Source of the DNA: Cetorhinus maximus
Lineage: Eukaryota
Assembly (NCBI RefSeq): GCF_964194155.1
Contig: NW_027597768.1
Coordinates: 1 to 64,000, forward strand
DNA length: 64,000 bases
Direction of reading: 5' to 3'
In this document: piece by piece, positions 2,901 through 64,000 of the stretch
Numbering within the stretch: the first letter of the stretch is position 1
How the letters are laid out: each line of letters opens with the position of its first letter
The notes under the pieces: model-generated
The model's database searches: none
Told to the model about the DNA's origin: nothing
The model's input: only the letters and a program-made list of their open reading frames with translations
Position numbers and translations under genes: made by a program

Positions 2901-3428
2901 GGTGCTGTGTGACTTGGAGGGGATCTTGAAGTTGATGGTGTTCACATACACCTGCCACCCTGGTCTTTCTGGTTGATGCAGGTTGAGGTTTTTGGAATTT
3001 TTGTCAAAGTTCTGGCCAAGTTGTAGACATATAAAATCCCTCTCCTTCAGCCCCTGCCTCTCTTGCCCCTCTCACGCTCTGTCCTCCTGTGGACACTAGA
3101 GTCTTGTGAGACCCAGACCGGGTGGCAGGTTCACTTCCCTGAAGGACATTAGTGAATCAGTTGGTTTTTTACGACATTCCAGTAGTTTTCATGGCCACTT
3201 TTCCCTGGTGTCAGCCGCACAAATTACCGGATTCATTCAGCTCAATTTCACAATCTGCCTTTGTGTTTTACTGGTTTCACTCTCACTCCCTTTTTATCTG
3301 TTTTAAATCAATTTCACAGGATATTAGAAGTGGAGGATTTGCAGTTGGGAAACTCAAACCAAACATCACATCAGGATCTGACGGAGTCGTCCAATTTATT
3401 GTAACCCGAATATCATCGGATTTTAAAC

Positions 3429-4301
3429 ATGGAAGGAAAAAGTACCATCCACAATAGAGAGAAACCATGGAAATGTGAGGACTGTGGGAAGGGATTCAGT
3501 TACCAGTCTAAGCTGGAAACTCATCGACGCGCTCACACTGGGGAGCGGCCGTTCACCTGCTCTGAATGTGGGAAGGGATTCACTCAGTCGTCCACGCTGC
3601 TGACACACCAGCGAGTTCACACTGGGGAGAGGCCGTTCACCTGCTCCAAGTGTGGGAAGGGATTCATTAATTTAACCAACTTGCTGACACACCATCGAGT
3701 TCACACTGGGGAGAGGTTGTTCAGCTGCTCTGAATGTGAGAAGCGATTCACTCGGTCAGCTGACCTGCTGACACACCAGCGAGTTCACACTGCGGAGAGG
3801 CCATTCACCTGTTCTGAATGTGGGAAGGGATTCACTCTGTCATCTGACCTGCTGACACACCGACGAATTCACACCGGGGAGAGGCCATTCACCTGCTGCA
3901 TGTGTGGGAAGGGATTCACAAGATCATCCCATCTACTGAGACACCAGCAAGTTCACACTGATGAGAGACCTTTTAAATGCTCGGACTGTGACAAGTGCTA
4001 TAAAAGTTCTGAGGACCTGATGTCCCATCGACGTGCTCACACTGATGAGAGACCATTCAGGTGTTCTCACTGTGGGACTGGGTTCAGGCGATCATCTGAC
4101 CTCATTGCACACCAGCGCATTCATACTGGGGAGAGGCCTTTCATCTGCTCAAAGTGTGGGAAGGGATTCACTCAGTCATCCAACCTGCTGAGACACCAGC
4201 AAGTTCACAATGGGAAGAGACCATTCACCTTGTCCTTGTGTGGAAAGGGATTCACTCAGACAGCCACCTTTCTAACATCCCATCGAGTTCTCACTGAGTG
4301 A
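3429..4301 (+). CDS. Tandem C2H2 zinc-finger protein, 9 intact fingers plus 1 degenerate (class A, MEGK start); decayed fingers continue to ~4607
   Basis: 290-aa ORF with C-x2-C...H-x3-H and TGERP linkers; acceptor ttcacAG at 3319; family 3'UTR with AATAAA ~4732. Confidence 0.85.
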
Positions 4302-4819
4302 CAGAAGGGATTCACTCAGCCATCCTATTCGCTGAAACAACAGCAAGTTCACAGTGTGGAGGGACATTTAAATGCCCATATCATGGGAAATCCTACAAAG
4401 GTTCCCGCAAGTGATATCCAATCAAAATGTTCACATCGCCAGGAACTGTTCAGGTGCTCTCACTTTAGAACTGGGTTTAGGATTTCATCTCAACTCACTG
4501 TACACCATAAACTAGTGAGTTCATAGTGGGGAAAGGCCGTTCACCTGCTGTGGGAAAGGATTTTCTCACTTATCCCACCTGCTAGTCACTAGTGACTTCA
4601 CAAGTAACTACAGAAATTGAATTTTGCTGTTAATCACATCCAGGACTGAACCATGTTCATTGAGATCTGTTGGTGCTGATGTTCATCAACACCAGCCCTG
4701 TTATGGGTGTTAATATTGAGGATAAATGTCAAATAAATCAGCACTACATTACATAGAGTATCAATTATTTTTAATATCTCTAACTCACGTTAGTTCCTTT
4801 TGAAGGTTTGTCCCTCTCC

Positions 4820-5560
4820 CCTGTCTCCTCCATCCTCAGCACCAACAACAAGTATGAGGAGCTCATTGAGCTTCTTTGTCACTAAGATTGAGACAGTCTG
4901 ATCAATTGCCTCTGCTGCTTCTCTCCCTCCCACTATCCCACTGGGCCATACTGCCTCTAAAGTTCTCCCTTTTCCGAGTCCTGAACCTTCATATTTCTCT
5001 AGTTTCCCTCCCATTTCCTCTCATGCCCCCCCAGGGATCATCTTGTCCATGAGACCTATTTCTGCTCCATCAACCCTATTCCCTCAAAATTCCTGACCAC
5101 CCAACTTCCCCATGTATACTGACTTTCTTAATGGTTCTCTCTTTAAATACTGCCCCTCTTTCCTTCATATCTGCCATCATCACCCCCTCCTCAATAAAAA
5201 CAATCCTTCACCTCAGCCGTTGTAAACTACTGCCCCTTCGCACCACCCTTTCCTCTTCAAGGTCTTTCTTACCTCCCAAATCCATGCCCCTCTTTCCTAC
5301 AACTCAATCTTTGAATCCCTCCAATAAGATTTCTGTCTCTGCCATAGTATCCAAACAACCCTAATTGAAGTCACAAATTACATCTTATTTGAGTGTGACA
5401 AAGGTAAACTACCCATCATTGTCCTTCCTGGCCTGCCTGCAGTCTCTAACATCATTGATCAAACCATCCTCCTGCAATGTCTCAGCACTGTTATTCAGCT
5501 GGAAGGGACTGCACACTCCTGATTCCTTTCTTATCTATCTAATTGTCATCAGAGGATAAC
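4820..5560 (+). mobile_element. L2 LINE ORF2 fragment
   Basis: FFVTKIET-like motif and degenerate RT N-terminal region; homologous inverted piece at 7380-7590. Confidence 0.65.
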
Positions 5561-6035
5561 CTGTAGAAACTGTGATTGTTTGAGTTATATTTTTACACAC
5601 TTGCTCACTTAGTAAGTGATCAGGTGTTAATGAACTTTGACAAAATGTTCTGTTATCACGCTCATAATGACCGCATCTTGCAAACCAAGTCTTTCTAATT
5701 ACACCAGCCCTTTTGGATAAAATCCAAAGAGAAGAGTAAAAATTTACAGTCCACCGAGCAAGCTCTTAGTCGTAAAACAAAATCTGATACTTCCCATTAA
5801 AATGCAAAGCATTATTGACCAGCTGTGGATTGCTCTGTTTCAAATTTATTGAAACAGACGCATTGCCAAGATTGGCTAACAGATCCATTGCTGGATGATG
5901 CGGATTGGGAGATGGATTTTGGCCTTTCTTATTTTGCAATCCTTATGTGATCAGAATCTCCTCCTCACTTCCCCAGATGCAGAGAAAGAAAAACTAAGAC
6001 TGGGCCTCCAAAGGTGGCCGGGTCACCCACAATCC

Positions 6036-6450: not shown

Positions 6451-6779
6451 AAACTGATTTGTCTAAAATTCCAGTGCCCGGTGTAAAACATTAAAGATGA
6501 TTTGTTGTTCTGAGCTGCATTATTTGGTAGAATTAGAGTGAAGGAGTGGGATTGATCCACAGCCTGAGTCACCAGTTTGAGGACAAGAGGAGAGAGAATC
6601 TGGAGAGGAGAAAAGAATAAGTTGGAGACTGGACACTGAATCTGGAACAATGAGCAGAGAGGGAGAGGAGTGTGTGGGACAGAGATTTATAGAATTGTGG
6701 GAATGAAAGGGGGGGGTGGAATGTTCCATAGAAACTAGAATTGTCTGTTCTGAATTTCTATACTGTATTTACAGTGATA

Positions 6780-7380
6780 ACTTCTGTAAACTCCATTTAC
6801 ATGGGGTTAGAAGGGGAGGATTTGCAGGCAGGAATCTCAACAAGATCTTATGCAATCACTTCATTCATATATGGTCAGCTTCCAATTAGGAAACGAAAAA
6901 TAATTAGATAAAAGCAAAATACTGCAGTTGCTGGAAATCTGAAACAAAAACAAAAATAGATGGAAAAACTCAGCAGGTCTGACAGAATCTGTGGAGAGGA
7001 ATACAGTTAACGTTTTGAGTCTGTTTGACTTTTCTGATGAAGAGTCATACGGACTTGAAACGTTAACTGTATTCCTCTCCGTAGATGGTGTCAGACCTGC
7101 TGAGTTTTCCAGCTATTTTTGTTTTTGAAGGAGAAATAATTGTTTGTTTTGCCTGTGCATTTAAATTATCATTGAAATTGGAAAAGTACTGAGACACACG
7201 TATCAAAGTGAGAGTCTTTCAGTGAACTGTGTGTGGAAAGAGCTTTAACCAGTTTCACAGCCTGATAAAACCACAACAATCAAAGTGTGGAGAAACCACA
7301 CATAAGTTGTGTGTGGACAAGGCTTCAATCGATCATCCAACCTGGAGAGACACCAAGAAACTTGCACCATGGAGAAATCA
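6780..7380 (+). pseudogene. Truncated ZNF cassette: leader fingers up to MEK, then replaced by L2; acceptor AG mutated to AT; Penelope hairpin inserted
   Basis: CGQGFNRSSNLERHQETCTMEK followed by non-ZNF sequence; tttacAT at ~6801. Confidence 0.75.
6905..7126. mobile_element. Penelope-derived inverted-repeat hairpin with hammerhead core (7034-7066, +)
   Basis: Arms 6946-7030 and 7043-7126 are reverse complements; CTGATGA-AGAGTC-ATACG-GACTT-GAAA-CGTT. Confidence 0.75.
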
Positions 7381-8198: not shown

Positions 8199-8900
8199 TT
8201 ACTCATGAACTCGTTGGTGTTTCAGCAGGTCAGGTGACTGAGTGAATCCCTTCCCACACTTGGAGCAGATGAAAGGTCTCCCTCCAGTGTGCACTTGATG
8301 GTGTGACAGCAGGCTGGATGACTGAGTGAATCCCTTCCCACAGTCAGAGCAGGTGAACGGCCTCTCTGCAGTGTGAAGTCGCTGGTGTATCAGCAGGACG
8401 GATGAGCGAGTGAATCCCTTCCCACAACCCATGCAGGTAAACGGTCTCTCCCCAGTGTGAATTCACCGGTGCGTCAGCAGGCTGGATGACTGAGTAAATC
8501 CCTTCCCACACTCAAAGCAGGTGAATGGCCTCTCCCCAGTGTGAGTACGTCGGTGTGTCAGCAGGTGGGATTTAACTGAGAATCCCTTCCCACACTCAGA
8601 GCAGGTAAACGGCCTCTCCCCAGTGTGAACCCGCTGGTGCGTCAGCAAGTCAGATGACCGAGTAAATCCCTTCCCACACTCTGAGCAGGTGAATGGTCTC
8701 TCCCCAGTGTGAACCCGCTGGTGTGTCAGCAGGTTGGATGACTGAGTAAATCCCTTCCCACACTGGGAGCAGGTGAACGGCCTCTGCCCAGTGTGAATGC
8801 GTCGATGAATTTCCAGCAAAGACGGGGTTATGAATCCCTTTCCACAGTCCCCACATTTCCACTGTCTCTCCCCACTGTGAACGGTGTTTTTTCCTTCCAT
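8199..8900 (-). pseudogene. C2H2 ZNF (class A), 8 fingers with an in-frame TGA in finger 5 (8463-8465); could encode a 4-finger truncated protein
   Basis: ORFs 8463..8900 and 8199..8432 are in the same frame; CAC CGG TGA ATT CAC. Confidence 0.8.
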
Positions 8901-9254
8901 TTCAAAATCTGATAATATTCAGGTTACGATAAATTGGGTGACTCTGTCAGATCCTGATTTGATGTTTGATTTGAGTTTCCTGACTGAAAATCCTTCCCTT
9001 CTAATGCCCTGTGAAATGGATTTAAAATAGAAAAAAAGTGTGAGGGAGAACCCAGATAAACAGGTTGTGAAATTGAGCTGAATGAATCTGGCAATTTGTG
9101 GCACTAGCAAAAAGTGGCCATAAAAGCTGCTGGATTGTAATAAAAACCGAACTGGATCAGTAATGCCCTTCAGGAGGGAACCTGCCATGCCTGATCTGGG
9201 CCCACACAAGACTCTGGTCTCCATAAGAGGAGGCTGATAGAAAGAGAGAGAGAG

Positions 9255-10439: not shown

Positions 10440-10925
10440 GGACTGGAGGACTGATGAAGTCATCTAGTTCTCCCACCAATCAGAGTGCCTGTTAAGGGCG
10501 GGGTTTGCAGAACTAAGTGGGCGGGGCTGAGCGGTGAACCCCCTCTGGCTGCCTGGCCCAGTATTGCCCCTTATAAATATGGCGGCTGCACATTGCCCCC
10601 TATGAAGATGGCGACCGTGAACCCGGGGCCACCAACCGGAAATGCCGCCCCGAAGTGTGGCCAACGCATGACAAGTAGGTTCCTTTTCTGGTACTTGAGG
10701 CCTCCACTGGGTGTTTATCAAGCCTTTCCACCCATTCCGCCGCCTCCATTATCCTCCTACAATCGACTGTTACTCACCTGTTGCAGAGTCGAGATGACTC
10801 CCTCCCGGCGCCTTCAGCACCCACAATACGCATGCTCTAGCCACAACCCGGTAATGCGCCTGCGCAATGGCCTCCTGCAGTGAGTATAGGGCATATTCTC
10901 TTTCGACGCGAATGCTGGGTAAGAA
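10440..10925 (-). promoter_or_regulatory. CpG-rich promoter/first exon, likely for the ZNF at 8199-8900
   Basis: tgcgcctgcgca ~10855, acgcatgctc ~10828, reverse donor CAG|GTGAGT ~10777, YY1-like aagatggcg ~10605, ccaat ~10477. Confidence 0.65.
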
Positions 10926-11044
10926 CCCCGCCATTTAAAGGCGATATTGTTGAAATGAAAATTCCGTTTAGTGATCCAATTACGACTGGGGCCATAGGGC
11001 CAAGATATAAAATTATTAAAACAATTAGTATAGAATACTAAACT

Positions 11045-19265: not shown

Positions 19266-19685
19266 TTACTTGTGAACTCGCTGGTGTCTCTGTAGGTGGG
19301 ATTAATTAATGAATCTCTTCCCACATATGGAGCAGTTGAATGGCCTCTCCCCAGTGTGAACTTGTTGGTGTGTCAGGAGGCTGGATGACTGAGTGAATCC
19401 ATTTCCACACACAGAGCAGGTGAACGGTTTCTCCCCAGTGTGGATACGTTGGTGTGTCAGCAAATCTGGTTTTCTTTTCAAGCTCTTCTCACAGTCAGAA
19501 CATGTAAACGGTTTATCAGAATGAACAAGTTTGTGTGTCTGAAGGCAGGACAACCGAGTGAATCCCTTCTCACACATGGGGCAGGTGAACGGCCTCTCCC
19601 CAGTGTGAGTGCATCGATGAGCTTCCAGGTGGGATGGGGAACTGAATCTCTTCTCACAGTCCCCACATTTCCACGGTTTCTCCAT
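19266..19685 (-). CDS. Short C2H2 ZNF, 4 intact fingers; fifth finger cut by TAA (19302-19304); possibly a pseudogene
   Basis: ORF 19302..19685 [10 protein letters not shown]; the frame continues SHLQRHQRVHK* to 19266; leader 19690-20050. Confidence 0.65.
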
Positions 19686-20399
19686 GGTGTTGATGTCCTT
19701 GTGCCTCTCCAGGTTGGATGATCAGTTCACACTTCGACCAGACACAGAACACGTGTACAGTCTCTCCCCACTGTGAATGGTGTGATGTTTCCTCAGGCTC
19801 TGTGACTGGTTAAAGCTCTTGCCACAGTCAGTGCACTGGAACACTCTCACTCGAGTGTGTGTGTGTGTGTCTCGGTGATTTTCCAATTACACTGATGTTT
19901 GAAATCTTTTCCTGCAGCCAGAACAGACAAACATTTCTCCTTCCAGATTCAAAGGCCGTGATATTCAGGTCCTTATGAATCGAGTGACTCTGTCAGATCT
20001 TGATATGATGCTTGGTTTGAGTTTCCTGTCTGTAAATCCCCCTGTTTAAGGTTTTTACAAAAACAATCACCAAGGACAGAACAAACATTTCTCTTGCTTT
20101 GCGTTTGCTGTGTGTAAATCCTCTCCTTCTAATCCCTGATTTTGAGTTTCCAAAATCAACCACTGTCAGCCCAGGATACAAACCCTGAATTATTATTTGA
20201 AGGGGAAGGATGAACAGGGTTACAGGGAGAAGGCAGGGGAATGGCACGAGGTGAATTGCTTGTTCGGAGAGCTAGCACAGACATGATGGGCTGACTGGCC
20301 TCCTTCTGTGCTGTAACCATTCTGTGATTCTGTGAAATTCACAAATTCTCTCCTGTTTCCTGGCCCAGGATGATCGTGCGTGCGCCCTGCTCCACACTG

Positions 20400-20700
20400 T
20401 TCCCCTAACCCGGGCCTGTCACTGGGGAATGCCGGACCAGTGCAAACATGGATTTGGGGTTTGTGGCCTACAGAAAGTGTTTGTGAAGCATCCTCACCCT
20501 CCCGCCGGCTCCATCACTCCCTCTGTCTCCCCTCGACTGCTAACCGACTGCAGATACGAAAAACAAGTGCCATCCATGGCCATTACTCACACTGCACATG
20601 CTCCAAACCCTGTCTGAAACTGTGCCTGTGCACTGGTCTCCTGTGGTGTAGATAGGGGACATTCCCCACCGTGGGGAACGCTGGGCAAATGTCCCGTCAC
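20400..20700 (-). promoter_or_regulatory. CpG-decayed copy of the cassette promoter
   Basis: Reverse strand reads tgcacaggcacagt...ggagcatgtgcagtg, versus tgcgcaggcgcagt...ggagcatgcgcagtg at 53360-53400. Confidence 0.6.
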
Positions 20701-20867
20701 TGGAGGTCCCAGTTTGTGAATAGTCATTTTGTTCTGTGATGGGTGGAGGTTCGGGCTGGAGGGCCAATCAATATAATGAGGAGCAAAATTATACAGAAGC
20801 CCAAGTGCACAGACCCTCCATTATCCACCAGAAGGAATGGGGGTTAGTGAAGAATCGAGGGTCCCCC

Positions 20868-22353: not shown

Positions 22354-22944
22354 CTAGATGTGCACACGCTGGTGTCTCAGCAGATGTGATGAATGAGTGA
22401 AACCCTTTCCACAGATGGAACAGGTGAATGGTGTCTCTCTATTGTGAATCCCCTGGTGTGTTAGCAGCCTGGATGAAACAGTGAATCCCTTCCCACACAC
22501 CAAGCAGGTGAACAGCCTCTCCGCAGTGTGAACTCGCTGATGTGCCAGAAGGAGGGATGAGGAAATGAATCCTTTCCCACACTCGAAGCAGGTGAATGGC
22601 TTCTCTCCGGTGTGAACTCGCTCGTGCGTCAGAAGACGGGATGAAACAGTGAATCGCTTCCCACAGACAGAGCAGGTGAACGGCCTCTCCCCAGTGTGAA
22701 CTCACTCGTCTGTCACAAGATGGGATGCACAACTAAACCCCTTTCCACATACAGAACAAATGAATGGTCTCTCCCCAGTGTGAACTCGCTGATGTGTTAG
22801 CAGGATAGATGACTGAGTGAATCCCTTCCCACACACGGAGCAGGTGAATGGCTTCTCCTCAGTGTGAGTGCGTCGATGAGTTTCCAGCTTGGATGGGTAA
22901 TTGAATCCCTTCCCACAGTCCCCACATTTCCATGGTTTCTCCAT
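22354..22944 (-). pseudogene. C2H2 ZNF, 7 fingers, in-frame TGA in finger 3 (22702-22704); further decayed fingers at ~22200-22330; leader to acceptor ~23310
   Basis: [23 protein letters not shown]; GAC GAG TGA GTT CAC ACT GGG; frame continues to TAG at 22354. Confidence 0.8.
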
Positions 22945-24030: not shown

Positions 24031-24134
24031 CACTTACCACAAACAGAGCAGGCAGCCCTGTTTGTCCTTCCACAATCAGATGCAGATGATACCCAGGTCC
24101 TGGTGACTTGAGGGACTTACGTCCTTGGCTTGCT

Positions 24135-30150: not shown

Positions 30151-30159
30151 GATAATAAT

Positions 30160-44877: not shown

Positions 44878-45849
44878 TCATTGGTTTGCACTGTGGGTGG
44901 ATGACTTCCTGAACCTCTTCCCACTAGAAGTGCAGCTGAATGGCTTCTCCTCAGTGTGACTTCGCTGGTGTCTTAGCAGGCTGGATGATTGGGCAAATCT
45001 CATCCCACACACAGAGCAGCTGAACAGCCTCTCCCCGGTGTGAACTCGCTGGTGCAACATGAGACTGGCTGACTGAGTAAATCCCTTCCCACATACGGAA
45101 CAGGTGAATGGTCTCTCCTGAGTATGAACTCGCTGGTGTGTCAGCAGGTTGGATGACTGAGTGAATCCCTTCCCACACACAGAGTAGATAAATGGTCTTT
45201 CGCCAGTGTGACCTCGCTTGTGTACAGTGAGACTAAATGGAGACTTGAACCTCTTTCCACAGGAAGTGCAGCTAAATGGCCAATCCTCAGTGTGAACTCT
45301 CTGGTGTAACATGACACCAGCTGATTGAGTGAATCCCTTCCCACACACGAAGCATGTGAATGGCCTCTCTCCAGTGTGAACCCGTTGATGTGCGACGAGG
45401 GTGGAAGAATGCCTGAACCTCCTTCCACAAGAAGTGCAGCTGAATGGTCTGTCCTCAGTGTGAATTCGCTGGTGTAACATAAGGCCGGCTGACTGAGTAA
45501 ATCCCTTCCCACACTCAGAACAGGTGAACGGTCTCTCCCCAGTGTGAATGCGTTGATGAGTTTCCAACAAGCATCGATAATTGAATCCCTTCCCACAGTC
45601 CTCACATTTCCACTGTTTCTCCATGGTATGGGTGTTCTTGTGTCTCTCCAGGTGGAAAATCAATAAAAGCCTTGTCCACACAGAACAAGTGTATGGTTCC
45701 TCCCCACTGCGAATTGTGTGATGTTGTTTCAGGCTGTGTAACTTGTTAATTCTCTTTCCACACTCAATGCACTGGAACACTCTCACTCGGGTGTGAGTGT
45801 GTCTTGGTGCTTTTCCAGTCACACTGGAAAAGAAAGAACAGACAAACAT
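44878..45849 (-). CDS. C2H2 ZNF, 7 intact fingers from MEKQWK (ATG 45624) plus degenerate ones; the leader is open in frame from ATG 45849
   Basis: ORF 44878..45867 (the track's start codon is TTG); decayed last finger and family 3'UTR at ~44790-44600. Confidence 0.75.
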   Translation of the reverse strand: MFVCSFFSSVTGKAPRHTHTRVRVFQCIECGKRINKLHSLKQHHTIRSGEEPYTCSVWTRLLLIFHLERHKNTHTMEKQWKCEDCGKGFNYRCLLETHQRIHTGERPFTCSECGKGFTQSAGLMLHQRIHTEDRPFSCTSCGRRFRHSSTLVAHQRVHTGERPFTCFVCGKGFTQSAGVMLHQRVHTEDWPFSCTSCGKRFKSPFSLTVHKRGHTGERPFIYSVCGKGFTQSSNLLTHQRVHTQERPFTCSVCGKGFTQSASLMLHQRVHTGERLFSCSVCGMRFAQSSSLLRHQRSHTEEKPFSCTSSGKRFRKSSTHSANQ

Positions 45850-46269
45850 TTCTCTTTCCACATCCAAAGGCCGATGATATTCAGGTCCTGATGATTGAAT
45901 GACTGTCAGATGTTGATGTAACGTTTGGTTTGAGTTTCTCGTCTGTAAATCGTCCTCCTTTAATTGTCCTGTAAAATGCGTTTACAAAAGTCATCACTCT
46001 CAGTGCAGGAAAAGATCGTAACAGACAAATCAAGTTTTTGTGAAACAATTTTCTTCTTATGTTCCCCCAAAACTGAAAATTCCCGTCTCACACACTCTCC
46101 CACACCCGTGCTGAAGTTCCAACCCATCACACTATCTGTTACCATTTCTTTCTTCCACTCCCAATTTTCCCCCTCCCTTTACTAAGCCTGGATTGTTTTC
46201 CAGCCCCTGCACACAGACTGAGAATAAAATTAATGAATCAATCATTTTCTCTCCTAGTCACTGGGACCC

Positions 46270-46800
46270 CGAAGCCACGCCCTGCGTCACCAAGATGACC
46301 CATCATTCCCCCGCTCCAAGCGCAAACAAGATGGCGGCCGTAAACACGGGCTTAATCCGGGAAAAAGCCCCGCTGCAAACGCGGCATCTGCAGGTCTTTT
46401 GTCGGATTTCGCGGCTTACACCGGGTGAACAGAGGCCGCCCAACCGCCGGTTCCCCTCCCCCGCTGCCGAGCGACAAGCAAACATCTCCCCAGCATCAAC
46501 ACTCACCCTGCGCATGCTCGGAACACTCAGTGGAACCGCGCATGCGTTCAGGTCTTCTGTTGTGAGGATAGAGGACTTTCTCCCCCGCTCGGAATGCTGG
46601 GTATAGGCCCCGCCATTGGAACTATCCATCAATTTATGATTATTTCTTCGCAGTTGCTGAGGCTGCGCTCGTTCCGCTCAGCTTCTGGGAGCCGCACCGC
46701 GCATGCTCAGCGCATTTCGACTGTTTCCGGGGGCGGGACCTTCCCGCATCTGCGCAATGCGGCCACTCTGTCAGAGATAGGTCGTATTTCCCTGCGCCGT
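46270..46800. promoter_or_regulatory. CpG-rich, probably bidirectional promoter
   Basis: YY1 caagatggcggc 46327, reverse donor actcacc 46501, NRF1-like tgcgcatgctc 46509, cgcgcatgcg ~46537, cgcgcatgctc ~46699. Confidence 0.7.
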
Positions 46801-48500: not shown

Positions 48501-48777
48501 ATAAACTGGATTTCATTGTTCTGAATTTCCATCCTGCACTGACTTTTGTAAACTCCTATTATATGATAGTCATTTGGAAGGATTTGCAGGTGGGAAACTC
48601 AAACCAAACACCTCATCAAAATCTGACAGATTCACTCAATACATCAGGCGCTGGATATCATTGAATCTTCAATATAGAAGGAGAATGTTTTGAACAATTG
48701 CACAGCCTGAAAAAGCATCGCACCTTTCACAGTGGGGAGAAACTTTGTGTAGATGAGGTTTGAACTGATCATCCAAC

Positions 48778-49144
48778 ATGGACAGCCACGAGGACACCGG
48801 CACCACGGATAAACTGTGGAAATGTGGGGACTGTGGGAAGGGGTTTGTTTCCCCATCAAAGCTGGAAATTCATCGACGCAGTCACACTGGGGGGGAGGCC
48901 ATTCACCTGCTCTGTGTGTGGGAAGGGAATCATTAATTCATCCAACCTTCTGAGACACCAGTACATTCACACTGAGCAGAGTTCAGTCGTTTGCTCTGTG
49001 TGTGGGAAGGCAATCAGCCATTCATTGAACTTTCAGAGATGCCAGCAAACACACAGTGGACAGTGGCCGTTCACCTGCTCCGTGTGTGGGAGGGGATTCA
49101 CTCAGTCATGCTCCTGGCTGTCATATCAGCGAGTTCATAAGTGA
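48778..49144 (+). pseudogene. Degenerate 4-finger ZNF with frameshift after finger 1 and collapsed leader
   Basis: [37 protein letters not shown], then an expanded G-run shifts the frame; His ligands lost in fingers 3-4. Confidence 0.75.
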
Positions 49145-50664
49145 CTGTCGGGGTTGGATTCTGCCGTTGTTGCTGCTGTTAATCATGTTCATGATTGAAT
49201 CCTTTCATGCTGACAATTGGTGTTTGTTTCTGCTGATGTTAATAAACCACATAATTGGGCTACTGTTTAATATTCTGGGTAAATGTCAAATCGTTGTCAA
49301 GCTTTATTTTAAATACATTTTATGTAGATTTTTGTCTTTCACACCTGAGTGTTTAGCATCACCTGGTTGCAGCTCAGTAAGGGTAACCTGAGGGAGGATC
49401 ATACGACAGGAACAGAATTTCAGCCTGAACACGATCCTTCAGTGTCAGAATGAGAGGGACAAATGCCACTTTCGTCTTTCTTGTCTCTCAAGAAATGCGT
49501 TCCAGCCACTTCTATGCAGTATGCACAGCCTAATGGTGACCAAAGCCAGGTAGTGTGGAGTCAAAGGTCACATACAAAAATGCATTGAAAATCATAAACT
49601 CCCTGTTAGTCTAACCCTCTGATATCTGCTTTGTAACAATCGTGTTTCAAAGCTCTGAGGCACAGAGCAGATGGCTCCTTTACAAATGTGATTGTTCAAC
49701 CTGAGTCAGGAAGACTGAAAATGTGTTGTTAAATCAGAGATTGGTGTAAAAATCTGTTAACTGCTGGTACAATTATACAACATTCATTTGATCTTCAGAT
49801 ACAGAAGGACTTACAGCGTGTTTCCATAAATTCCTTATTTTATTGATGTTATATACCAGGATTTTATTGCAGTCTTCCGCAGGTTTAGCTCTACCCCGCA
49901 ATTTACTAATCAATAAATTAATAAATATATCACTTAATTACTTCATCGTGTCATTGTTCAGTCAGCTAACGAATTAAAGCTTTAATGAACTATGCTACAA
50001 ATATTTGTTAATTGCGAATTCTTACCTGTGATTTACTGTAATTCTGCTCCCAAGTTTTAAAATTGGAGCTCTGATTTCTGAGTCCAAATCGTTTATATAA
50101 ATTCTGAATAACAGTGGTCCCAGCATTTCTCCCTGTGGAACATCACGTCCCACCTTTTACCAGTCTGAGTAGCTACTCTTAACCTCTTCTCTCTGTTTTC
50201 TGTTTTGTAACTAGCTTGTTATCCACAACAGCATGTACAATCTACAAGGTGACCAAGATGCTGTGTGGAGTGAAGGACCAGGAAGCAGAATGGGTGGATA
50301 GATGGCTACAAAACCGAAATGAGAGGGTTAGATTTACAAGGAGTTTGCCGTGATCTTTCCATCCATTCTGCTCTGTGTACTGACCTTCACCGAGACCATC
50401 AATGGAAAGGGAATTAGCATCATGTGTACTGCCAAGTGGAAAGTAGAGGCTGCAATTTACCAAGGATGTTGTCCTGTGTTCTATACTATCTCCCACCAGG
50501 GCTGATAACCCAGGGTGGCAATAGACAGCTCATTGTTAACAATTTGCGTTTGCTTCTGTCCCAGGTGTTCTTCAATATTGATTTAAAGTTCAGAGAAACA
50601 TAGAAAATAGAAGAAGGAGAAGGTCATTCAGCCGTTCAAGCCTGCTCCACCATTCAATATGATC

Positions 50665-52440: not shown

Positions 52441-53309
52441 TCATGGCTGATCCTCTGTCTCAACGCCATAATTCCACTCTCTCCCCATACCCCTTGATGC
52501 CTTTAGAGTCTAGAAACCTAAGCATTTCCTTCTTAAATATATTCAGTGACTAGACCTCCACAGCCTTCGGTTCACCGCTCTCTGCTTGAAGAGGTTTCTA
52601 CTCATGTCAGTTCTAAATGTCCTACCCCGTATCCTGATATTGTGACCCCTTGTTCTAGACCCCCCCAGCAAGAGGCGACATCATCCCTGCATCCAGCCTG
52701 TCCAGCCCTGTCAGAATTTTACTCGTTTCAATGAGATCACCTCTCATTCTTCTAAACTGCAGTGAATACAGGCCTAGTCGGCCCAATCTCTACTCATTCG
52801 ACAATCCTGCCATCACAGGAATCAGTCTGGTGAACCTTCACTGCACTCCATCTTTGAAAAGTATATCCTTTCTTAGGTAAGGAGACAAAAACTACACACA
52901 ATACTCCAGGTGTGGTCTCACTGTACAGCTGCAGTAACACAAGGGTTGAATTGGATGGCCAAAACTTCTCGCAGTCCCTGCAGGGTCATGTTTAGTTGAA
53001 TTTCTGGAACATTGTGGCCCTCCTCCCCGGTATTATTCGGGTTGATTGGTGTGAGGCAAAATGTTATTTGCCTGATCGATCAGGTAGTGCCCCCATGTGT
53101 GCCTGTGAGTATGTGAGTGGGTGTCTGTGTGTGTGAGTGATGTGTAAAACCTGACATCTGTGCAACCAGACCCCACTTATTTAGTAAGAACATGCAGTGT
53201 CTGTTGTTTTCCAGATCCCTTCCTTTCCCCTGACTATTATCCTCAGGTAGTACACAAATTCCTTGTGCACATCGTCCTCCAGCGCACCCATTGTTCCCAT
53301 GAATCACCC

Positions 53310-53620
53310 GAGCAGTGAGATGGAGCATGCGCAGTGCGGCTGTTGAGGCCGGATAGCAGTGCGCAGGCGCAGTGTCGGGAAGTCTGGAGCATGCGCAGTG
53401 CGATTGATGGCCTTGCGGGTAGAGGCGCCTGCTTGTCCCGGAGAAGCGGAGTCAGAGCGAGGCGGTGGGTGGGAGGATTTGGAAACACTTTGTGGATCCA
53501 CAAACCCTGAGGAATAATTATCAGCTCCTGGTTTGCAGCTGCGGGGCTTCTCCCTCCCGGGAACAGGCCCAGGTTAACGGCCGCCATCCTGGGTCAGCGA
53601 GTGGAGGATGGTTCACATCA
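53310..53620 (+). promoter_or_regulatory. CpG-rich promoter/first exon of the ZNF at 54403
   Basis: tggagcatgcgcagtgcg twice (53321, 53385), tgcgcaggcgca 53360, YY1-like gccgccatc ~53580. Confidence 0.7.
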
Positions 53621-54402
53621 GAGGATGGGGGAGGGGGGACAATAAATAAGAGGTTACACTTTGCGCTCAAATCAATGAGGATCTGATCTGTGGGAAGGAA
53701 GGAAACCCTGGGAGGTGGGCGGGGAGGATTCAGAAACACCCGCTGGAGGCCCCGAACCCCCAATAAGACTCATTGATTTTATTGTCAGTCTGCAGACAGG
53801 AGCTGGAGAACTGAACCCAGGCAGAGGAGAGGGAGGGAGAAAACTGGGAGTGGAGGAAAGAAATGGTGGAGATGGTGAGATGGGTTTGGATTTCAGCCCA
53901 GGGAGGAGGGAGAGTGTGTGGGATGGGGATTTACAGCTTTGGGGGAACAAGAGAGGAAAATATGTTCCATCGAAAGTAGAATTGTCTTTTCTGAATTCTG
54001 TCCTGGACTGACAGTGATGACCTTTGCAAACTCCTTTTACAGGTTAGATGAGGGTTTGCAGATGGGAAACTTGAAGCAAACATCACGTCAAGATCTGACA
54101 GAGTCACTCAATTCATTTGAACCTGAGCATCATCGGCCTTCGAATGTGGAAGGATAAATATTTGTCTCTTCAGTCGGGGAGGGGGAAGATTTCAAACATT
54201 TGTGTGACTAAAAAAGCGGCAAGACTCACACACCCGAGTGAGAGTGTTCCAGTGCACTGACTGTAGAAAGATCTTTAACCGGTTACACAGCCTGAGAAAG
54301 CATCACATTGTTTGTAGTGGGGAGAAACCATAAACGTGTTCTTTATGTGGATGAGACTTCAACTGATCATTCAGCCTCGAGAAACACAAGGATACCGGCA
54401 CA

Positions 54403-55161
54403 ATGGGGAATCCGTGGAAATGTGGGGACTGTGGGAGGGGATTCAAATGCCCATCCACGCTAGAAACTCATCGACGCAGTCACACAGGGGAGAGACCATT
54501 CACCTGCTCTGTGTGCGGGAAGGGATTCACAGAATTATCCAGTCTCCAGTCACACCAACTCATTCACACTCAGGAGAAGCCATTCAGCTGCACTTTCTGT
54601 GGAAAGAGCTTCAGGCAGTCAGGCACTCTCATTACACACCGGCGAGTTCACACAGGGGAAAGGCCGTTCACCTGCTCTGTGTGTGGGAAGGGATTCACTA
54701 AGTCATCCAACCTGCTGACACACCAGCGAATTCACACTGGGGAGAGGCCATTCACCTGCACTGTGTGTAGCAAGGGATTCACACGGTCATCCCACCTGCT
54801 GATACACCAGCGAGTTCACACTGGGGAGAGACCGTTCATCTGCTCCGTGTGTGGAAAAGGATTTACTGATTCATCCTGCCTCCTGTCACATCAACAAACT
54901 CACACTGAGGAGAGACCGTTCAGCTGCACTTACTGCGGAAAGAGGTTCAGGAGTTCATCACACCTCATTGCACACCAACGAGTTCACACTGGGAAGAGGC
55001 CGTTCACCTGCTCCGAGTGTGGGAAGGGATTCACTAAGTCATCAAACCTACTGACACACCAGCGAGTTCACACTGGGGAGAGGCCGTTCACCTGCTCCAA
55101 GTGTGGGAAGGGATTCATTAATTCATCCAAACTTTTGGCACACCAGCGAGTTCACAAATGA
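54403..55161 (+). CDS. C2H2 ZNF, 9 intact fingers
   Basis: 252-aa ORF; acceptor at 54042; family leader and 3'UTR. Confidence 0.9.
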
Positions 55162-56519
55162 CTGCAGGGACTGGATTATTCTGTTAATCACATCCAGGAC
55201 TGAATCATTCTGACAGTTCAGCTTTGGTTCTGCTGAAGTTAATACCCCCGGTAACTGGGCTTGATCTTAGTATTTGTAACTGTAGCTAATTGTGTTCTAG
55301 GGGCTGCAATTTTTAAGAACTGCTGTCTGTGACCTTCCCTGTAGTTCAGGAACTTGCATTAGTCGTTAGTTCAGAACAATATTATGAACTTTTTCTTCAA
55401 TCCTAAATTGATCTTTGGTACGAACTCTACAATTCAGTGACTGAAAGGTTTCACTGATTAACATCTCCATTTAGAAAGTGCTGATTAATCCTTGCTGACA
55501 ATTCTTACTGACATACATATTACACACAGTGACAACTCCATTATCCACCAGAAAGAAGGGGAATGAGAATTGGTGGAGAATCAAGAGTCCCCAAATATTA
55601 CCCCTCCCGTCTGGTACAGAAATCCCTCGAGTGGGAATGGAGACAAGTCCAATCCATGTCACGGGCTGTAGGAAATCACCATCTATTAACCGTAAGAAAT
55701 CTTAAGTAAGTTGTTGACTATTGTAGAAATAACTCTCTTTCTTATGAAAAAAGACTCCATAGCAGCTTGGTGCTGACAAGCATGGATAGGGCTGTTGTCT
55801 GAGGACATGTCTCTAGCACAGGCCCTGAAGCAAGACATTTCTAACCCTGATACAACTGGATCCCATGACCCAGATGTAAAGCAGCTGTCTGTTTTTTTTA
55901 AATTCAATTCATTCATAGGATGGAGACGTCGCTGGCTCAGCCAGCATTTATTGCCCTTGTTCAGAGGGCATTTTAAGAATCAACCACATCACTGTGGGTC
56001 TGGGGTCACATGTAGGCCAGACCAGATAAGGACAGCAGATTTCCTTCCCTAAAGAACATTAGTAAACTAGATGAGTTTTTTATGACAATGATTTCATGGG
56101 CATCAGTTTTTTTTTAATGAATTCAAATTTCACCATCTGCCATGGTGGGATTCAAACCCAGGTCCCCAGTGCATTAATCTGGCACTCTGGAATACCAGTC
56201 CAGTGACAATACCACTACTCCACCACCTCCCCAATGACTGTGTAAAGGTTAACACAGGCTCTTGAGAGGAAAAAAAAATCTCTTTGACTAGGAAGAAAAT
56301 TCCATACTGATCCATATTGGCTCCAGTACAACACCCACACTTTGGCACACACCAGCAAACTGTTGAGAAGAGACCGCTGCCATCAGCTACAGAGCCCAGC
56401 ACTTACTCTGCATCATCCATCTGTTTGTTCTCCGGGACAGTAAACTGTTCTCACTCCATCAGCTTCAAGGATCTCTTTCTGAAAGGGCTCCAGCCATGAG
56501 TCTGTAGCATGTGGGGTGT

Positions 56520-59521: not shown

Positions 59522-60364
59522 TCACTTATGAACTTGCTGGTGTCTCAGCAGGTACGATGAACAAGTGAATCCCTTCCCACAGACGGAGCAGGTGAATGGT
59601 CTCTCCCCAGTGTGAGTGTGTCGGTGTCTCTGCAAGTGAGATAACTGAGTGAATCCCTTTGCACACACGGAACAGGTGAATGGCCTCTCCCCAGTGTGAA
59701 CTCGCTTGTGATTCAGCAGGGTAGATATCTGAGTGAATCCCTTCCCACAGGCGGAGCAGGTGAATGGCCTCTCTCCAGTGTGAGTGCGCTGGTGAATCTG
59801 CAGATACAGTTTGCCTTTAAAGCTCTTCCCACAGTCGGAACATTTAAAAGGTCTCATGTCAGAGTGAACTCGCTGGTGTCTCAGAAGGTGGGCTGAAATG
59901 GTGAATCGTTTCCCACACTCAGAGCAGGTGAATGGTCTCTCCCCAGCGTGAGTTCTCTGGTGTTTCAGCAGGCTGGATGACTGAGTGAATCCCTTCCCAC
60001 ACACGGAGCAGGTGAACGGCCTCTCCTCAGTGTGAATTTGTTGGTGCATCAGCAAAACCTTTTTGCTTTTAAAGCTCTTCTCACAGTCAGCACATTTAAA
60101 AGGTCTCATGTCAGAATGAATAAGATGGTGTGACGTGAGGTCGGTTACTTGACTGAATCCCTTCCCACACTTGGAGCAGGTGAATGGTTTCTCCCCAGAG
60201 TGAGTTCTCTGGTGTTTTTGTAAGCTGGATGACTGAGTGAATCCCTTCCCACATACGGAGCAGGTGAACGGTCTCTCCCCGGTGTGACTGTGTCAATGGA
60301 TTTCCAGCACGGACGGGGATCTGAAGCCCTTCCCACAGTCGCCACATTTCCACGGTTTCTCCAT
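59522..60364 (-). pseudogene. C2H2 ZNF, 10 fingers with an in-frame TGA in finger 1 (60293-60295); downstream ORF 59522..60109 keeps 7 fingers
   Basis: ATG GAG AAA CCG TGG...ATC CAT TGA CAC AGT CAC; otherwise one continuous frame of 843 nt. Confidence 0.8.
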
Positions 60365-61699
60365 GATGCCAGTGTCCTCGTGTCTCTCCAGGTTGAATGA
60401 TCAATGGAAGCCTCGTCCACACACAGAACACGTGCACGTTTTCTCCCCGCTGTGAATGGTGTGATTTTTTTTTCAGGCTGCGTAGCTGGTTAAAGCTCTT
60501 TCCACAGTCCGTGCACTTGGACACTCTCACTCGGATGTTTGTGCGTCTGGGTACTTTTCCAGTCACGCTGATGGTTGAAATCTTTTCTGAAAGACAGAAC
60601 AGACAAACATTTCTCCTTCCGCATTCAATGGCCAATGATATTCAGGTCCTGATGAACCGAGCTTTTCTTTCAAATCTCCTTTCTCTCATGTACTCATCTA
60701 GTTTCCTTTGAAAGCAACTAAGTTACTTCACCTCAACTGCTTCCTGTGGTAGTGAATTTCACTTTCTAGCTACTCTCTGACTAAAGGCATTTCTCCTTAT
60801 TTTCCTGTTGGTCTTTTTAGGAACTATCTTGTACATATGGTCCTGGTTTTTGATTCCCCCCCACATGGAAACATTGGCTCCACTTCTACCCCGTACAACC
60901 CATTCATAGTTTAAAAAATCCTCTGGCAGGTCACCGCTAAGCCTTAACTTTTCTAAAGAACAAAGCCCTATCCTGTTAATTTTCCCAATAAATGTAATCG
61001 CTCAGTTAGGATATTATCCTTAAAAATCCTTTGTGCAGAAGCTCCAATGCTTATTTGACTTAATTGTATGGAGACCAGAAATACCTACATGGTCCTAAGC
61101 AATTTGAACAATATTTAATTATTTCTTAATCTGGTACCCCTGGAAATAAATCCGGGTCTTTTGTGAACATTTTGAATTGATTTCCTGACTTGCAATAATG
61201 TTTTTCATTATTCATCTCTTTCCAGAGATTGCATTTCTCTTCTTCTCCATTCAGTTTCTTATTCACTAAGGTCTAGGTAATGTTTGTATTTTTGCTCCCA
61301 AGGTACATCATTGCATATTACACGAACATATGGGCAATGAGCAGGAGTCGGCCATTCATCCCCTCGTTGTTGAAGTTCATTTGCCACTTAACTGCCAGTC
61401 TGCAGGTGTTCTAATGACTTCTTGTATTATATTAGTGTTAGAAATGCTGTTTGGCATCAGCTGCCAATATTTTCATTGTTCCCAAGTCCCGGTCAGTAGT
61501 GTAAATTATGAATAACGGTGTTGGATCACCACTTTGAACCTTCTTCCAATCTGAAATTGCGAGTGGATGTGGTGGTGATTGCATAGATTGCATCAGGGAG
61601 GAGGGTCCAGACATTCGGGTTTCTACATAATAAAGTGTTTATTTAATGTATTGTGCCTCTCGAACTGATCTTAATTGGGATGCCGAAACATTACATTCT

Positions 61700-62450
61700 C
61701 TGCCCGCAATTCAACCTATCAATGGCGGCTCATTTACCCAGAACAGCCAGCGCTCCAGAAGATCCCCTATCAATGACTATAGGAGTCCAGTGCGCAGGTG
61801 CAGTGTGGGTGTGCGCTCTGAGCATGCTCAGTGTCAGTCATGGTGACAGAGTGAGGAGGAGCGGACGGTTTGGGAGGCGGGAGGAGATTGTGAGCACAGG
61901 GTAGGAATGGAAACCGCGGCTGTACTGGGAACTGGATCAACTTCTGGGGTAGGCCTGAGACCCCGAATAAGAGGCCCGAAACCCCGCGTTTACCGCGCGG
62001 TGACAGGCCCGGGGACAGCGGGCTCACTGGCCGCCATCTTGCGAGTCGGGGCGGGGCGGATCCGGGAGGCGGGGCTTCCTCCCCAGTGACAGACCCGGGT
62101 TATTAAAACAAAAATTGCAGGAAAAACTCGGCAGGTCTGACATCATCTGGGAAAAGAAAGACAGAGTTGACATTTCGAGTCCGTATGACTCTTCTTCAGA
62201 ATTGAAGAGAAGTAGAAATGTGGTGAAATATATATGTTAAAGGGCGGGGCGGTGGGGGGGGGTGCGGCGTGGGACTGGTGAAGCTGGATAGGAGGCCAGT
62301 GATAGGTGAAGGCAAAGGAGAATCCGATTACCCGGGCAACAGGCCGCCGCCATCATGGGAGAGGAAGGCGGGGCTTGTTCAATGAGGGGGCTCTTGGGCG
62401 GCCATCTTGGTGAGGTAAGAGGCAGTGGGCGGGGACTCAGGGACCCATTG
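61700..62450. promoter_or_regulatory. CpG-rich promoter between divergent ZNFs, interrupted by a Penelope fragment (62100-62320, -)
   Basis: tgcgcaggtgcagtg 61791, gagcatgctcagtg 61820, YY1 gccgccatcttg 62030, ggcggccatcttg 62397. Confidence 0.65.
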
Positions 62451-62488
62451 GCCTGTGCAGCATTGTAAGATGGAATTCACTTCCCCAG

Positions 62489-62702
62489 AACAAAAACAGA
62501 ATTACCTGGAAAAACTCAGCAGGTCTGGCAGCATCGGCGGAGAAGAAAAGAGTTGACGTTTCGAGTCCTCATGACCCTTCAACAGAACTCGAAACGTCAA
62601 CTCTTTTCTTCTCCGCCGAGGCTGCCAGATCTGCTGAGTTTTTCCAGGTAATTCTGTTTTTGTTTTGGATTTCCAGCATCCGCAGTAGTTTTTTGTTTTT
62701 AT
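62489..62702. mobile_element. Penelope-derived near-perfect hairpin with target-site duplication
   Basis: Arms ~62489-62566 and ~62587-62666; flanks ttcacttccccag (62476) and ttcacttcccag (62703). Confidence 0.8.
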
Positions 62703-63510
62703 TTCACTTCCCCAGAGATCAGTGAAGGCTGGGTCATTGCACATTTTCAAGGCTGAGTTAGCTGCATTAATTTTTGATCCACAAGGCAGTCATGGGTTAT
62801 GGGTGCGAGGAGAAATGTGGCGTGAAGGCCAGAATCAAATCAGCCATGATCTCACTGAGCAGGCTTGATGGGCCGAATGGCCTCTGCTGCTGTTATTTCT
62901 CACAATCTTATGAAGGTGGGCTGCTTCAGCGAGCGGAGTGCATGTTTGGCCATCTTGTTGGGGAACAGAGAATTGGTGGAACTTCAGCATCCCAGTCATC
63001 AGGAGATAAGAGGGGAACGTATGTGAAACAGGGTGTTAAACCTTCGGGGAACCAAGAGAGAAAAAAATGCTTCATAGAAACTAGAATTTTTCACTCTGAA
63101 TTTCTGGTCTTTCCTGACAGCGCTAACTTTTGTAAACTCCTTTTACAGCATATCAGAAAGGGAGGATTTGAAAATGGAAAGCTCAAACCAAACATCACAG
63201 CAAGATCTGACAGAGCCACTTGTTTCATCAGGACCTGAATATTATCCGCCTTTGAGTGTAGCAGGAGAAATGTTTGTCTGTTTACCCGTGGGAAAAGATT
63301 TCAAGCATCAGTGTGACTGGAAAAGCACCAAGACACACACACCCATGTAAGCATGTTCCAGTGAATTGACTGTGGAAAGAGTCTTAACCAGTTAAACAAC
63401 CTGTAAAACATTACCCCATTCACAGTGGAGAGAAACCACACACATATTCTGTATGTGGATGAGGCTTCAACTGATCATCCAATCTGGAGAGACACAAAGG
63501 CACCCACACT

Positions 63511-64000
63511 ATGGAGAAACCATGGAAATGTGGGGACTGTGGGGAGGGTTTCAGTTACCCTTCTGAACTGGAAATTCATCGACGCGCTCACACTGGGGAG
63601 AGACCATTTACCTGCTCCAATTGTGGGAAGGGATTCACTCAGTCGTCCAGCCTGCTGACACACCAGTATGTTCACACTGATCAGAGACCTTTTGAATGTT
63701 CTGACTGTCAGAAGAAATTTAAAAGCAAAAAATATCTTCTCAGACACCAACACATTCACAGTGGGGAGAAGTCATTCACCTGCTCCATGTGGGAAGGGAT
63801 TCACTGCTACATCTAACCTGCAGAAACACCAGCGAGTCCTCACAAATGAAAGACCTTTTAAATGCCCAGACTGTGGGAAGTGCTTTAAAAGTTCTGGGGA
63901 AGTGATATGCCATCAACGTGTTCACACAGACGAGAGACCGTTCAGATGCTGTCACTGTGGGACTGGGTTCAGGCGATCATCTGAACTCACTGTACACCAG
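63511..64000 (+). pseudogene. C2H2 ZNF, 3 fingers then a 2-nt deletion frameshift (~63790); array continues past the window end
   Basis: TGC TCC ATG TGG GAA GGG in place of ...ATG TGT GGG AAG; downstream KCPDC and RCCHC fingers are in another frame (could also be a sequencing error). Confidence 0.75.

What the first reader, a model, noticed from the sequence alone, without database searches (positions are those of the whole stretch)
3090..64000. KRAB-less ZNF 'cassette' family undergoing birth-and-death in a transposon-saturated cluster
Seen: about 14 copies in 64 kb share homologous parts (promoter, intron end, acceptor, leader, first finger, post-stop sequence), while finger number (4-10) and recognition helices vary. 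No KRAB/SCAN/BTB-like exon was recognised. Known: tetrapod KRAB-ZNF and cyprinid FiNZ-ZNF clusters have this organisation and repress transposons. Inference: this may be an independent chondrichthyan TE-surveillance system whose effector is not a classical N-terminal domain.
Basis: partly seen in the sequence, partly recalled or inferred. Interest (0 to 1): 0.8.

Follow-up and report, generated by a model that had tools for sequence, protein, structure and literature searches.

The report
Shark chromosome of effector-less zinc fingers
This shark DNA is one slice of a whole chromosome packed with thousands of duplicated gene-regulator genes that encode only DNA-gripping fingers, with no known silencing domain, so if they police transposons they must recruit their partner some other way.

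Summary
The cassettes are real: the window holds 14 first fingers and 16 shared acceptor/leader copies; 4 of the 14 keep a start-to-natural-end frame. The window samples a 65-Mb contig (G000:C24) estimated to carry about 5,200 cassettes (bootstrap 3,600-6,900), about 1,400 reaching their natural end; 13 control regions had none.

'KRAB-less' is now positively supported. An in-frame stop lies within 20 codons upstream of the first finger in 34 of 40 lineages, and the leader is non-coding (19 of 21 intact genes frameshifted). The proteins are fingers only.

Base-contact codons give omega 1.4-1.9 between old lineages (above 1 in 5 of 6 first-finger models) but 0.19 among recent duplicates. The first finger has its own conserved surface, shared by sharks and rays.

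Not supported: transposon density is no higher than genome background. Expression, splicing and transposon targeting remain unshown.

Wells et al. 2023 already counted shark ZNF expansions, but ten searches found no description of this architecture. Verdict: new variant of a known kind.

The parts
3320..3428 (+). Type A leader after the shared acceptor; in-frame TAA at 3402, 9 codons before the ATG
3429..4301 (+). Type A gene, open frame, 9 canonical fingers plus a decayed tenth
6747..7380 (+). Cassette fragment: acceptor (6747-6868) and decayed fingers (7123-7380) split by an inverted-repeat insertion; keeps CGA where most type B copies have TGA
8205..9027 (-). Type A cassette, 8 fingers, premature stop after finger 4 (pseudogene)
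10567..10946 (-). Promoter/first-exon element (predicted), about 1.5 kb upstream of the 9027 acceptor
19272..20088 (-). Type B cassette, ATG 19685, in-frame TGA at 19724, premature stop in finger 5
20358..20711 (-). Promoter/first-exon element (predicted) with a donor-like site
22354..23362 (-). Type B cassette, ATG 22944, stop after finger 2 (pseudogene)
23713..24086 (+). Type A fragment, one finger, truncated
24782..25141 (-). Promoter element lying between divergent cassettes (23362- and 25681+)
25681..27196 (+). Truncated type B cassette (to 26136) followed by a second one with ATA in place of ATG, 9 fingers, then a frameshift
33545..34300 (-). Intact type B gene, 251 aa, 8 canonical fingers plus one lacking a residue; in-frame TAG at 34315
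34301..34653 (-). Non-coding leader (acceptor near 34654) containing three decayed fingers
34750..35500 (.). CpG island with NRF1-like motifs between the divergent 33545 and 39032 genes
39032..39874 (+). Intact type B gene, 280 aa, 10 fingers including two recent tandem finger duplications; leader from about 38680, in-frame stop at 38930
44878..45968 (-). Type B cassette, ATG 45624, 248 aa, 7 canonical fingers, decayed 3' end; the one lineage of 40 whose leader frame is open back to the acceptor
46281..46630 (-). Promoter/first-exon element between divergent cassettes (46020- and 48520+)
48520..49256 (+). Type B cassette without ATG, frameshift after finger 1 (pseudogene), post-stop element 49142-49256
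53306..53638 (+). Promoter/first-exon element with tandem NRF1-like motifs and a YY1-like motif (motif names recalled)
54043..54402 (+). Non-coding leader; family-wide in-frame TGA at 54364, 13 codons before the ATG
54403..55161 (+). Intact type B gene, 252 aa, 9 fingers
55159..55257 (+). Shared post-stop 3' element, non-coding
59522..60761 (-). Type B cassette, 10 fingers, stop inside finger 1 (pseudogene)
61712..62093 (+). Promoter element between divergent cassettes (60761- and 63096+)
63149..64000 (+). Type B cassette, ATG 63511, frameshift after finger 3, cut by the window end
28570..29265 (+). Interspersed element: integrase core fragment (rve)
30680..31402 (-). Interspersed element: GIY-YIG endonuclease fragment (weak match, Penelope-like by recall)
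43047..44219 (-). Interspersed element: LINE C-terminal zf-RVT fragment; other RVT_1 fragments at 16152-16772, 35736-36509 and 50663-51578

Best explanation
An elasmobranch family of tandem C2H2 genes that fills a 65-Mb chromosome and renews itself by segmental duplication, finger gain and loss, and pseudogenisation. Each unit has a CpG-island promoter, a short non-coding first exon (inferred), a shared acceptor, a 5' leader made of a former coding linker and decayed fingers, and an ORF of fingers only. SHOWN: copy number and spread, non-coding leader, in-frame stop before the start codon, purifying selection on the fold, excess change at contact codons between old lineages, stasis among recent duplicates, and a distinct conserved first finger. 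INFERRED: the proteins are sequence-specific DNA binders whose repertoire diversifies against changing repeat sequence, most likely retroelements (about 0.55). Lacking a KRAB or FiNZ box, they recruit a common co-repressor through the invariant face of the first finger (about 0.35 overall), as Kipferl's fourth finger binds Rhino.
For: Scale: 43 leader hits in 26 of 54 C24 samples versus 0 in 13 controls; extrapolation 5,189 (3,620-6,878), with 12 of 43 reaching a natural end, giving 1,448 (724-2,413); 513 exact matches of a 32-nt first-finger motif, only 4 listed before C24. No effector: in-frame stop within 20 codons of the first finger in 34 of 40 type B lineages and within 60 in 39 of 40; within 14 codons of the start in 10 of 11 type A. 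Leader frameshifted in 19 of 21 intact genes, with mismatch by codon position 0.12/0.12/0.15. The 4 KRAB matches in the genome are on C34 and C22, none on C24. 0 of 35 named shark or ray family proteins carry KRAB, SCAN or BTB in their listed domains. Selection: finger 1 contact omega 1.9 (p=0.008), last finger 1.75 (p=0.02), finger 2 1.5 (p=0.08). First finger: D, P and E at three non-contact positions in 24, 23 and 22 of 26 genes, versus 23, 6 and not among the top four of 219 later fingers; omega 0.13-0.17 there versus 2.4 in the last finger. The signature occurs in 18 of 176 fetched proteins, 17 from named sharks or rays and 1 unnamed, none from named bony vertebrates or invertebrates. Context: ZNF and retroelement numbers correlate across animals independently of accessory domains (PMC10547256); precedent for a single finger as adaptor (PMC11245307).
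Against: No binding, expression or repression data. Repeat density is not raised locally. Contact omega falls to 1.39 (p=0.23) with empirical codon frequencies; only 21 genes from 14 lineages; gene conversion is not modelled. Among recent duplicates contact codons are conserved (7 non-synonymous versus 14 synonymous changes, omega 0.19, p=0.0002), so there is no sign of a fast current arms race in these families. The four 'surface' positions were chosen after seeing the data, and W, C and H conservation is partly built into my search patterns. Only about a quarter of copies look intact. In three batoid database models the homologous leader is open and lacks the shark start codon (P0037, P0067, P0123), so rays may keep a longer N-terminus.
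Confidence: 0.5

Rival explanations
1. Finger-only proteins act as passive blockers: they occupy repeat or promoter sites and exclude activators or position nucleosomes, without recruiting a co-repressor. The first finger is conserved for folding, N-terminal capping or stability.
For: No effector domain at either end; P at helix position +1 and W in the first strand could be structural.
Against: The conserved D, E and R are charged and lie at positions that vary freely in later fingers; the signature persists from sharks to rays.
Confidence: 0.18
2. The repertoire serves something other than transposon control: ordinary gene regulation, satellite or centromere binding, RNA binding, recombination or immunity.
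For: No local repeat enrichment; contact residues are stable among recent duplicates; C24 samples also hold Ig V-set, GPCR and tRNA genes. Wells et al. note that whether TE silencing is the primary role of ZNFs is open.
Against: Contact-codon omega above 1 and thousands of short-lived copies fit a moving target; shark ZNF counts scale with retroelement counts in the table rows seen.
Confidence: 0.2
3. A hidden effector exists: a rare isoform using an acceptor between the stop and the ATG, stop read-through, or a separately translated short upstream ORF of about 30 codons.
For: AG dinucleotides lie between the TGA and the ATG; one leader frame stays open for at least 29 codons in 19 of 28 intact genes; 1 of 40 type B and 1 of 11 type A leaders are open; a Mustelus model joins an upstream exon in frame (P0171).
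Against: Those AGs have weak T-rich tracts (T fraction 0.23 versus 0.49 at the shared acceptor). The short-ORF stretch has no codon periodicity (p=0.53) and a net frameshift in 10 of 28. The post-stop sequence is not under coding constraint. Database N-termini share no motif.
Confidence: 0.07
4. Mostly non-adaptive: an unstable region amplifies by unequal exchange, and few copies matter.
For: About three quarters of sampled copies are broken or fragmentary; 92-99% identical blocks recur across C24 and unplaced contigs.
Against: Structural codons in intact recent duplicates show 1.5 non-synonymous versus 15.5 synonymous changes and contact omega 0.19; conservation across sharks and rays.
Confidence: 0.05

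Closest known systems
Cyprinid FiNZ-ZNF family on zebrafish chromosome 4q (Wells et al. 2023, PMC10547256)
   Same: Lineage-specific family of hundreds of tandem C2H2 genes concentrated on one chromosome together with immune and RNA genes; positive selection on fingers; array in one exon.
   Different: FiNZ genes have a conserved 28-aa N-terminal domain in an upstream exon. Here an in-frame stop blocks any upstream exon at the shared acceptor, copy number is several-fold higher, and TE repression is untested.
Sarcopterygian KRAB-ZNF clusters (TRIM28 system)
   Same: Clustered birth-and-death evolution, TGEKP-type linkers, variable contact residues, one finger exon behind an acceptor; TRIM28 has been reported in elephant shark (PMC8292531).
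   Different: No KRAB box on C24; the KRAB matches in this genome lie elsewhere and look PRDM9-like (resemblance recalled).
Metazoan tandem-ZNF expansions counted by Wells et al. 2023
   Same: The shark expansion is in their table (for example S. canicula 3,586, C. carcharias 1,851, A. radiata 1,223, C. milii 475 ZNF ORFs).
   Different: Their main text never mentions sharks; no gene anatomy, effector status or first-finger signature was seen in the parts I could search.
Kipferl (Drosophila ZAD-ZNF) binding Rhino through its fourth finger (PMC11245307)
   Same: A single C2H2 finger within a DNA-binding array serves as a docking site for a chromatin protein.
   Different: Kipferl is one ZAD-domain gene; no homology is claimed, and no partner is known for the shark first finger.

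Membership tests
KRAB-ZNF | N-terminal KRAB-A box joined in frame to the finger exon | tested here: not met
   No KRAB match on C24 or in the window among 150 of 152 candidates scored; in-frame stops and frameshifts in the leader
KRAB-ZNF | Tandem C2H2 array with canonical linkers in one exon, in clusters | tested here: met
KRAB-ZNF | TRIM28 recruitment and TE repression | not testable with these tools
   Needs interaction and chromatin assays
FiNZ-ZNF | Conserved 28-aa acidic N-terminal domain from an upstream exon | tested here: not met
   No coding constraint upstream of the ATG. I did not search with a FiNZ profile; the test is structural.
FiNZ-ZNF | Positive selection at base-contact residues | tested here: inconclusive
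   omega 1.4-1.9, significant in 5 of 6 first-finger models, but 0.19 among recent duplicates
FiNZ-ZNF | Expression at genome activation and TE de-repression on knockdown | not testable with these tools
   No run on record as RNA held the stretch
SCAN-ZNF | SCAN domain upstream of the fingers | tested here: not met
   None in window ORFs; none of the best 150 of 4,987 genome candidates on C24 (partial)
BTB-ZF or ZAD-ZNF | BTB or ZAD domain upstream of the fingers | tested here: not met
   No such Pfam hit in 5 cassette proteins and 26 other window ORFs or in the listed domains of 35 shark/ray family proteins; not searched genome-wide

The most novel reading that the evidence does not exclude
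Sharks and rays run a third vertebrate ZNF-based genome-defence system in which the effector box was lost and one specialised zinc finger (the W-K-C first finger) became the universal co-repressor dock for over a thousand fingers-only proteins encoded on a dedicated chromosome.
Probability: 0.3. Interest if true: 0.82.

Novelty: new variant of a known kind. Interest (0 to 1): 0.6.

Why it matters
How vertebrates without KRAB-ZNFs aim silencing at transposons is an open question. Cyprinids use FiNZ, and cartilaginous fishes have some of the largest ZNF counts without a described family. Showing that the shark proteins are fingers only turns this into a direct test: either the first finger is the effector dock, or binding alone suffices. 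The shared leader also offers one family-wide knockdown target, and the anatomy would correct gene models that currently fuse cassettes with TE and intergenic sequence.

Tried and rejected
RNA evidence: no RNA holder listed. Four runs guessed to be RNA, from related organisms and 3 studies, were laid on 33100-47200. Contigs about 95% alike cover 34243-35019 and bridge the predicted acceptor of the 33545 gene unspliced. None of the 15 joints shown (918 hidden) is a GT..AG joint from a first exon. This is inconclusive for expression and for splicing.

Stop-codon read-through into the conserved post-stop peptide frame: rejected. Codon positions are flat (0.14/0.13/0.17), there is a second stop within two codons in 3 of 21 and a frameshift in 4 of 21; one row was mis-anchored.

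A conserved upstream micro-ORF: unsupported (one search used a wrong anchor 25 nt upstream). Head-to-head pairing as a rule: not enriched (tandem 11, divergent 9, convergent 8). Local TE enrichment: not seen.

A search with the decayed leader of the 45624 gene found 1 protein among 16 candidates, a toad ZNF. The Atlas gave only generic C2H2 clusters. Rfam found nothing in the window. Two look-ups of earlier findings were empty.

Only 20 of 100 planned extra cassette regions could be fetched, so the selection tests rest on 21 genes. No structure or complex prediction was run, and no binding motifs were predicted.
Full report
Observation. The window is G000:C1710:1-64000 in a 4.0-Gb genome. It holds 93 C2H2 matches, 14 W-K-C first fingers, 16 copies of an acceptor plus leader, six CpG-rich promoter-like elements and nine copies of a post-stop element. 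Four cassettes run from ATG to a natural end: 3429-4301, 33545-34300, 39032-39874 and 54403-55161. One more (45624) is open but decayed at its end. The rest carry stops, frameshifts or truncations.

Scale. Leader searches gave 2,726-3,470 first-look candidates, mostly on contig C24, which is 65.16 Mb long. In 54 evenly spaced 10-kb samples of C24 there were 43 leader hits in 26 samples, against 0 in 13 samples of other contigs. That extrapolates to 5,189 cassettes (bootstrap 3,620-6,878). Twelve of the 43 reach a natural end (8 with a start ATG), giving about 1,450 (724-2,413). A 32-nt first-finger motif has 513 exact matches; the first 100 are listed in contig order and only 4 precede C24. 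The 33545 locus has a copy at C24:11.07 Mb identical at 3,395 of 3,418 bases, so the window may be partly an alternate haplotype. The 54403 gene has no such collinear copy among its best hits, so the contig is a mosaic of recent segmental duplications.

Birth and death. The three named genes have 16, 10 and 16 near copies including themselves. Among those analysed, 1 of 9, 2 of 10 and 3 of 16 are broken, and the 39032 family has 7, 8 or 10 fingers.

Anatomy. A roughly 370-bp CpG-rich element carries tandem NRF1-like motifs, a donor-like site and a YY1-like motif (names recalled). It usually lies within 2 kb upstream of an acceptor, with 23 hits in the C24 samples and 0 in controls; the model was built from the six window copies. 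The acceptor AG is kept in 23 of 28 intact genes. Two types follow. Type A starts M-E-G-K and usually has one finger before the W-K-C finger. Type B carries three decayed fingers and starts M-E-K-P, where the ATG occupies the place of the G in a TGEKP-type linker; 33 of 40 lineages have ATG there, 22 in an ACC-ATG-G context. That both the stop (CGA to TGA) and the start (ACG to ATG) arose by CpG decay is my inference from copies that keep CGA or ACG.

Is there an effector? Ninety-two type B cassettes form 40 lineages at 90% identity. An in-frame stop lies within 20 codons of the first finger in 34 of 40, and within 60 codons in 39 of 40. Type A has a stop within 14 codons of its start in 10 of 11. 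The type B leader is frameshifted in 19 of 21 intact genes and shows no codon periodicity; synonymous change in finger 1 runs at about the leader's rate (scale 3.35 per codon). An upstream exon therefore cannot be joined in frame through the shared acceptor. Internal AGs have weak tracts, and a possible short upstream ORF shows no periodicity. The post-stop sequence is non-coding. KRAB matches four places in the genome, three on C34 and one on C22; the two C34 boxes I read look PRDM9-like (resemblance recalled). The best 150 of 4,987 SCAN candidates are dispersed, with none on C24. None of 35 named shark or ray family proteins lists KRAB, SCAN or BTB; two of them may not be independent of G000, and many are fused gene models. 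Caveat: three batoid models keep the homologous leader open without the shark start codon, and one Mustelus model joins an upstream exon. The leader was probably coding once, and rays need their own test.

Selection. I fitted a codon model to 21 intact type B genes (44 thinned at 97% identity). Omega at positions -1, 2, 3 and 6 was 1.9 in finger 1 (p=0.008), 1.5 in finger 2 (19 genes, p=0.08) and 1.75 in the last finger (p=0.02). Variants for finger 1 gave 1.91, 1.76, 1.81 and 1.72 (p 0.008-0.048), and 1.39 (p=0.23) with empirical codon frequencies. The very low omega at C, H and W is partly built into my filters, and finger homology is secure only for finger 1. Against a fast arms race, four recent families show 7 non-synonymous and 14 synonymous changes at contact codons (omega 0.19, p=0.0002). 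A fifth, older family shows 51 against 15. Specificity appears to be held in the short term and changed between older lineages.

The first finger. It differs from later fingers at non-contact positions: D in 24 of 26 versus 23 of 219, P in 23 of 26 versus 6 of 219, and E in 22 of 26 where later fingers mostly have L, Q, I or M. Omega at four such positions, chosen after inspection, is 0.13-0.17 versus 2.4 in the last finger. A signature pattern matches 18 of 176 fetched proteins: 17 from named sharks and rays (Heterodontus, Mustelus, Scyliorhinus, Chiloscyllium, Rhinoraja, Hemitrygon and one other shark) and 1 unnamed. No chimaera protein came up, which is not evidence of absence.

Transposons. 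LINE, integrase and GIY-YIG fragments lie between the cassettes. Shared-repeat coverage is 0.30 in the window, 0.23 across C24 and 0.28 in controls. Saturation is the genome's background and gives no support to a TE role.

Mechanism. Most likely these are sequence-specific DNA binders whose repertoire tracks changing repeats, with the conserved first finger recruiting a shared co-repressor. The anatomy and selection are shown; targets, repression and docking are inferred. Precedents: ZNF-retroelement coupling across animals (PMC10547256, passages); Kipferl's fourth finger binding Rhino (PMC11245307, passages); PRDM12 fingers and G9a (PMC10759634, start of abstract in a listing only). TRIM28 has been reported in elephant shark (PMC8292531, passages).

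Prior description. Wells et al. list shark ZNF ORF counts in a supplementary table and use catshark in their code (supplementary files 3-5 were not searched and may show shark clusters), but the main text has no mention of sharks. The whale shark paper notes loss of KRAB-box families in cartilaginous fishes (PMC8455134, passages). The Squalomix tandem-gene survey has no main-text hit for zinc, ZNF, C2H2 or KRAB (10.1101/2025.06.08.657570; figures and supplements not seen). A review places KRAB-ZFPs in sarcopterygians only (PMC10380595, passages). Ten searches found no description of this family's architecture; subscription journals are largely outside the library.

Verdict. A real, large and apparently undescribed variant of the lineage-specific tandem ZNF kind. 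It is not a KRAB-, FiNZ-, SCAN- or BTB-ZNF member. It probably works like them in target recognition, by an unknown effector route. Interest 0.6.

Noticed in passing
G000:C34:9.12-9.40 Mb (L139, L140): Three near-identical KRAB-A exons over the Pfam cut-off; the two I read resemble the PRDM9/SSX type (recalled), which suggests PRDM9 paralogues.
   Followed up: partly
L049-L064 (C24, 46-64 Mb), also L011, L014, L028: 19 tRNA calls in 10 of 54 C24 samples, 16 of them beyond 46 Mb and one called tRNA-SeC in L061, against 0 in 14 other samples.
   Followed up: no
L018:4204-4794, L023:1184-1858, L020:8521-9693, L048:3-581: Ig V-set (weak) and rhodopsin-type GPCR ORFs on C24 among the ZNF cassettes, recalling the mixed content of zebrafish 4q.
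   Followed up: no
window 6965-7108 and 62485-62668: Near-perfect palindromes (70-nt and 90-nt arms, 4-nt spacer, 87-93% complementary) of a short interspersed repeat; the first interrupts a cassette leader.
   Followed up: partly
window 11043-12332: Tandem duplication of about 650 bp (77% identical) in a LINE-derived stretch.
   Followed up: no
window 6494-6762 and 25287-25550: 90% identical intron-end segments of two cassettes 19 kb apart, a recent local duplication or conversion.
   Followed up: no
genome-wide: 4,987 SCAN-like candidates dispersed over many contigs, many with stops, consistent with LTR-element capsids (origin recalled) and not with SCAN-ZNF genes.
   Followed up: no
L078:4829-5293 (C22:29.32 Mb) and C10:89.0 Mb: A few cassettes lie off C24; the one examined is a broken type B copy.
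   Followed up: partly
L129:812-908 and L130: Cassettes with a duplicated first-finger unit in tandem, useful for testing whether one or two docking fingers matter.
   Followed up: no
P0078 (database protein): A sawshark gene model fuses histone H2A with this cassette, hinting at histone genes next to the cluster in that species.
   Followed up: no
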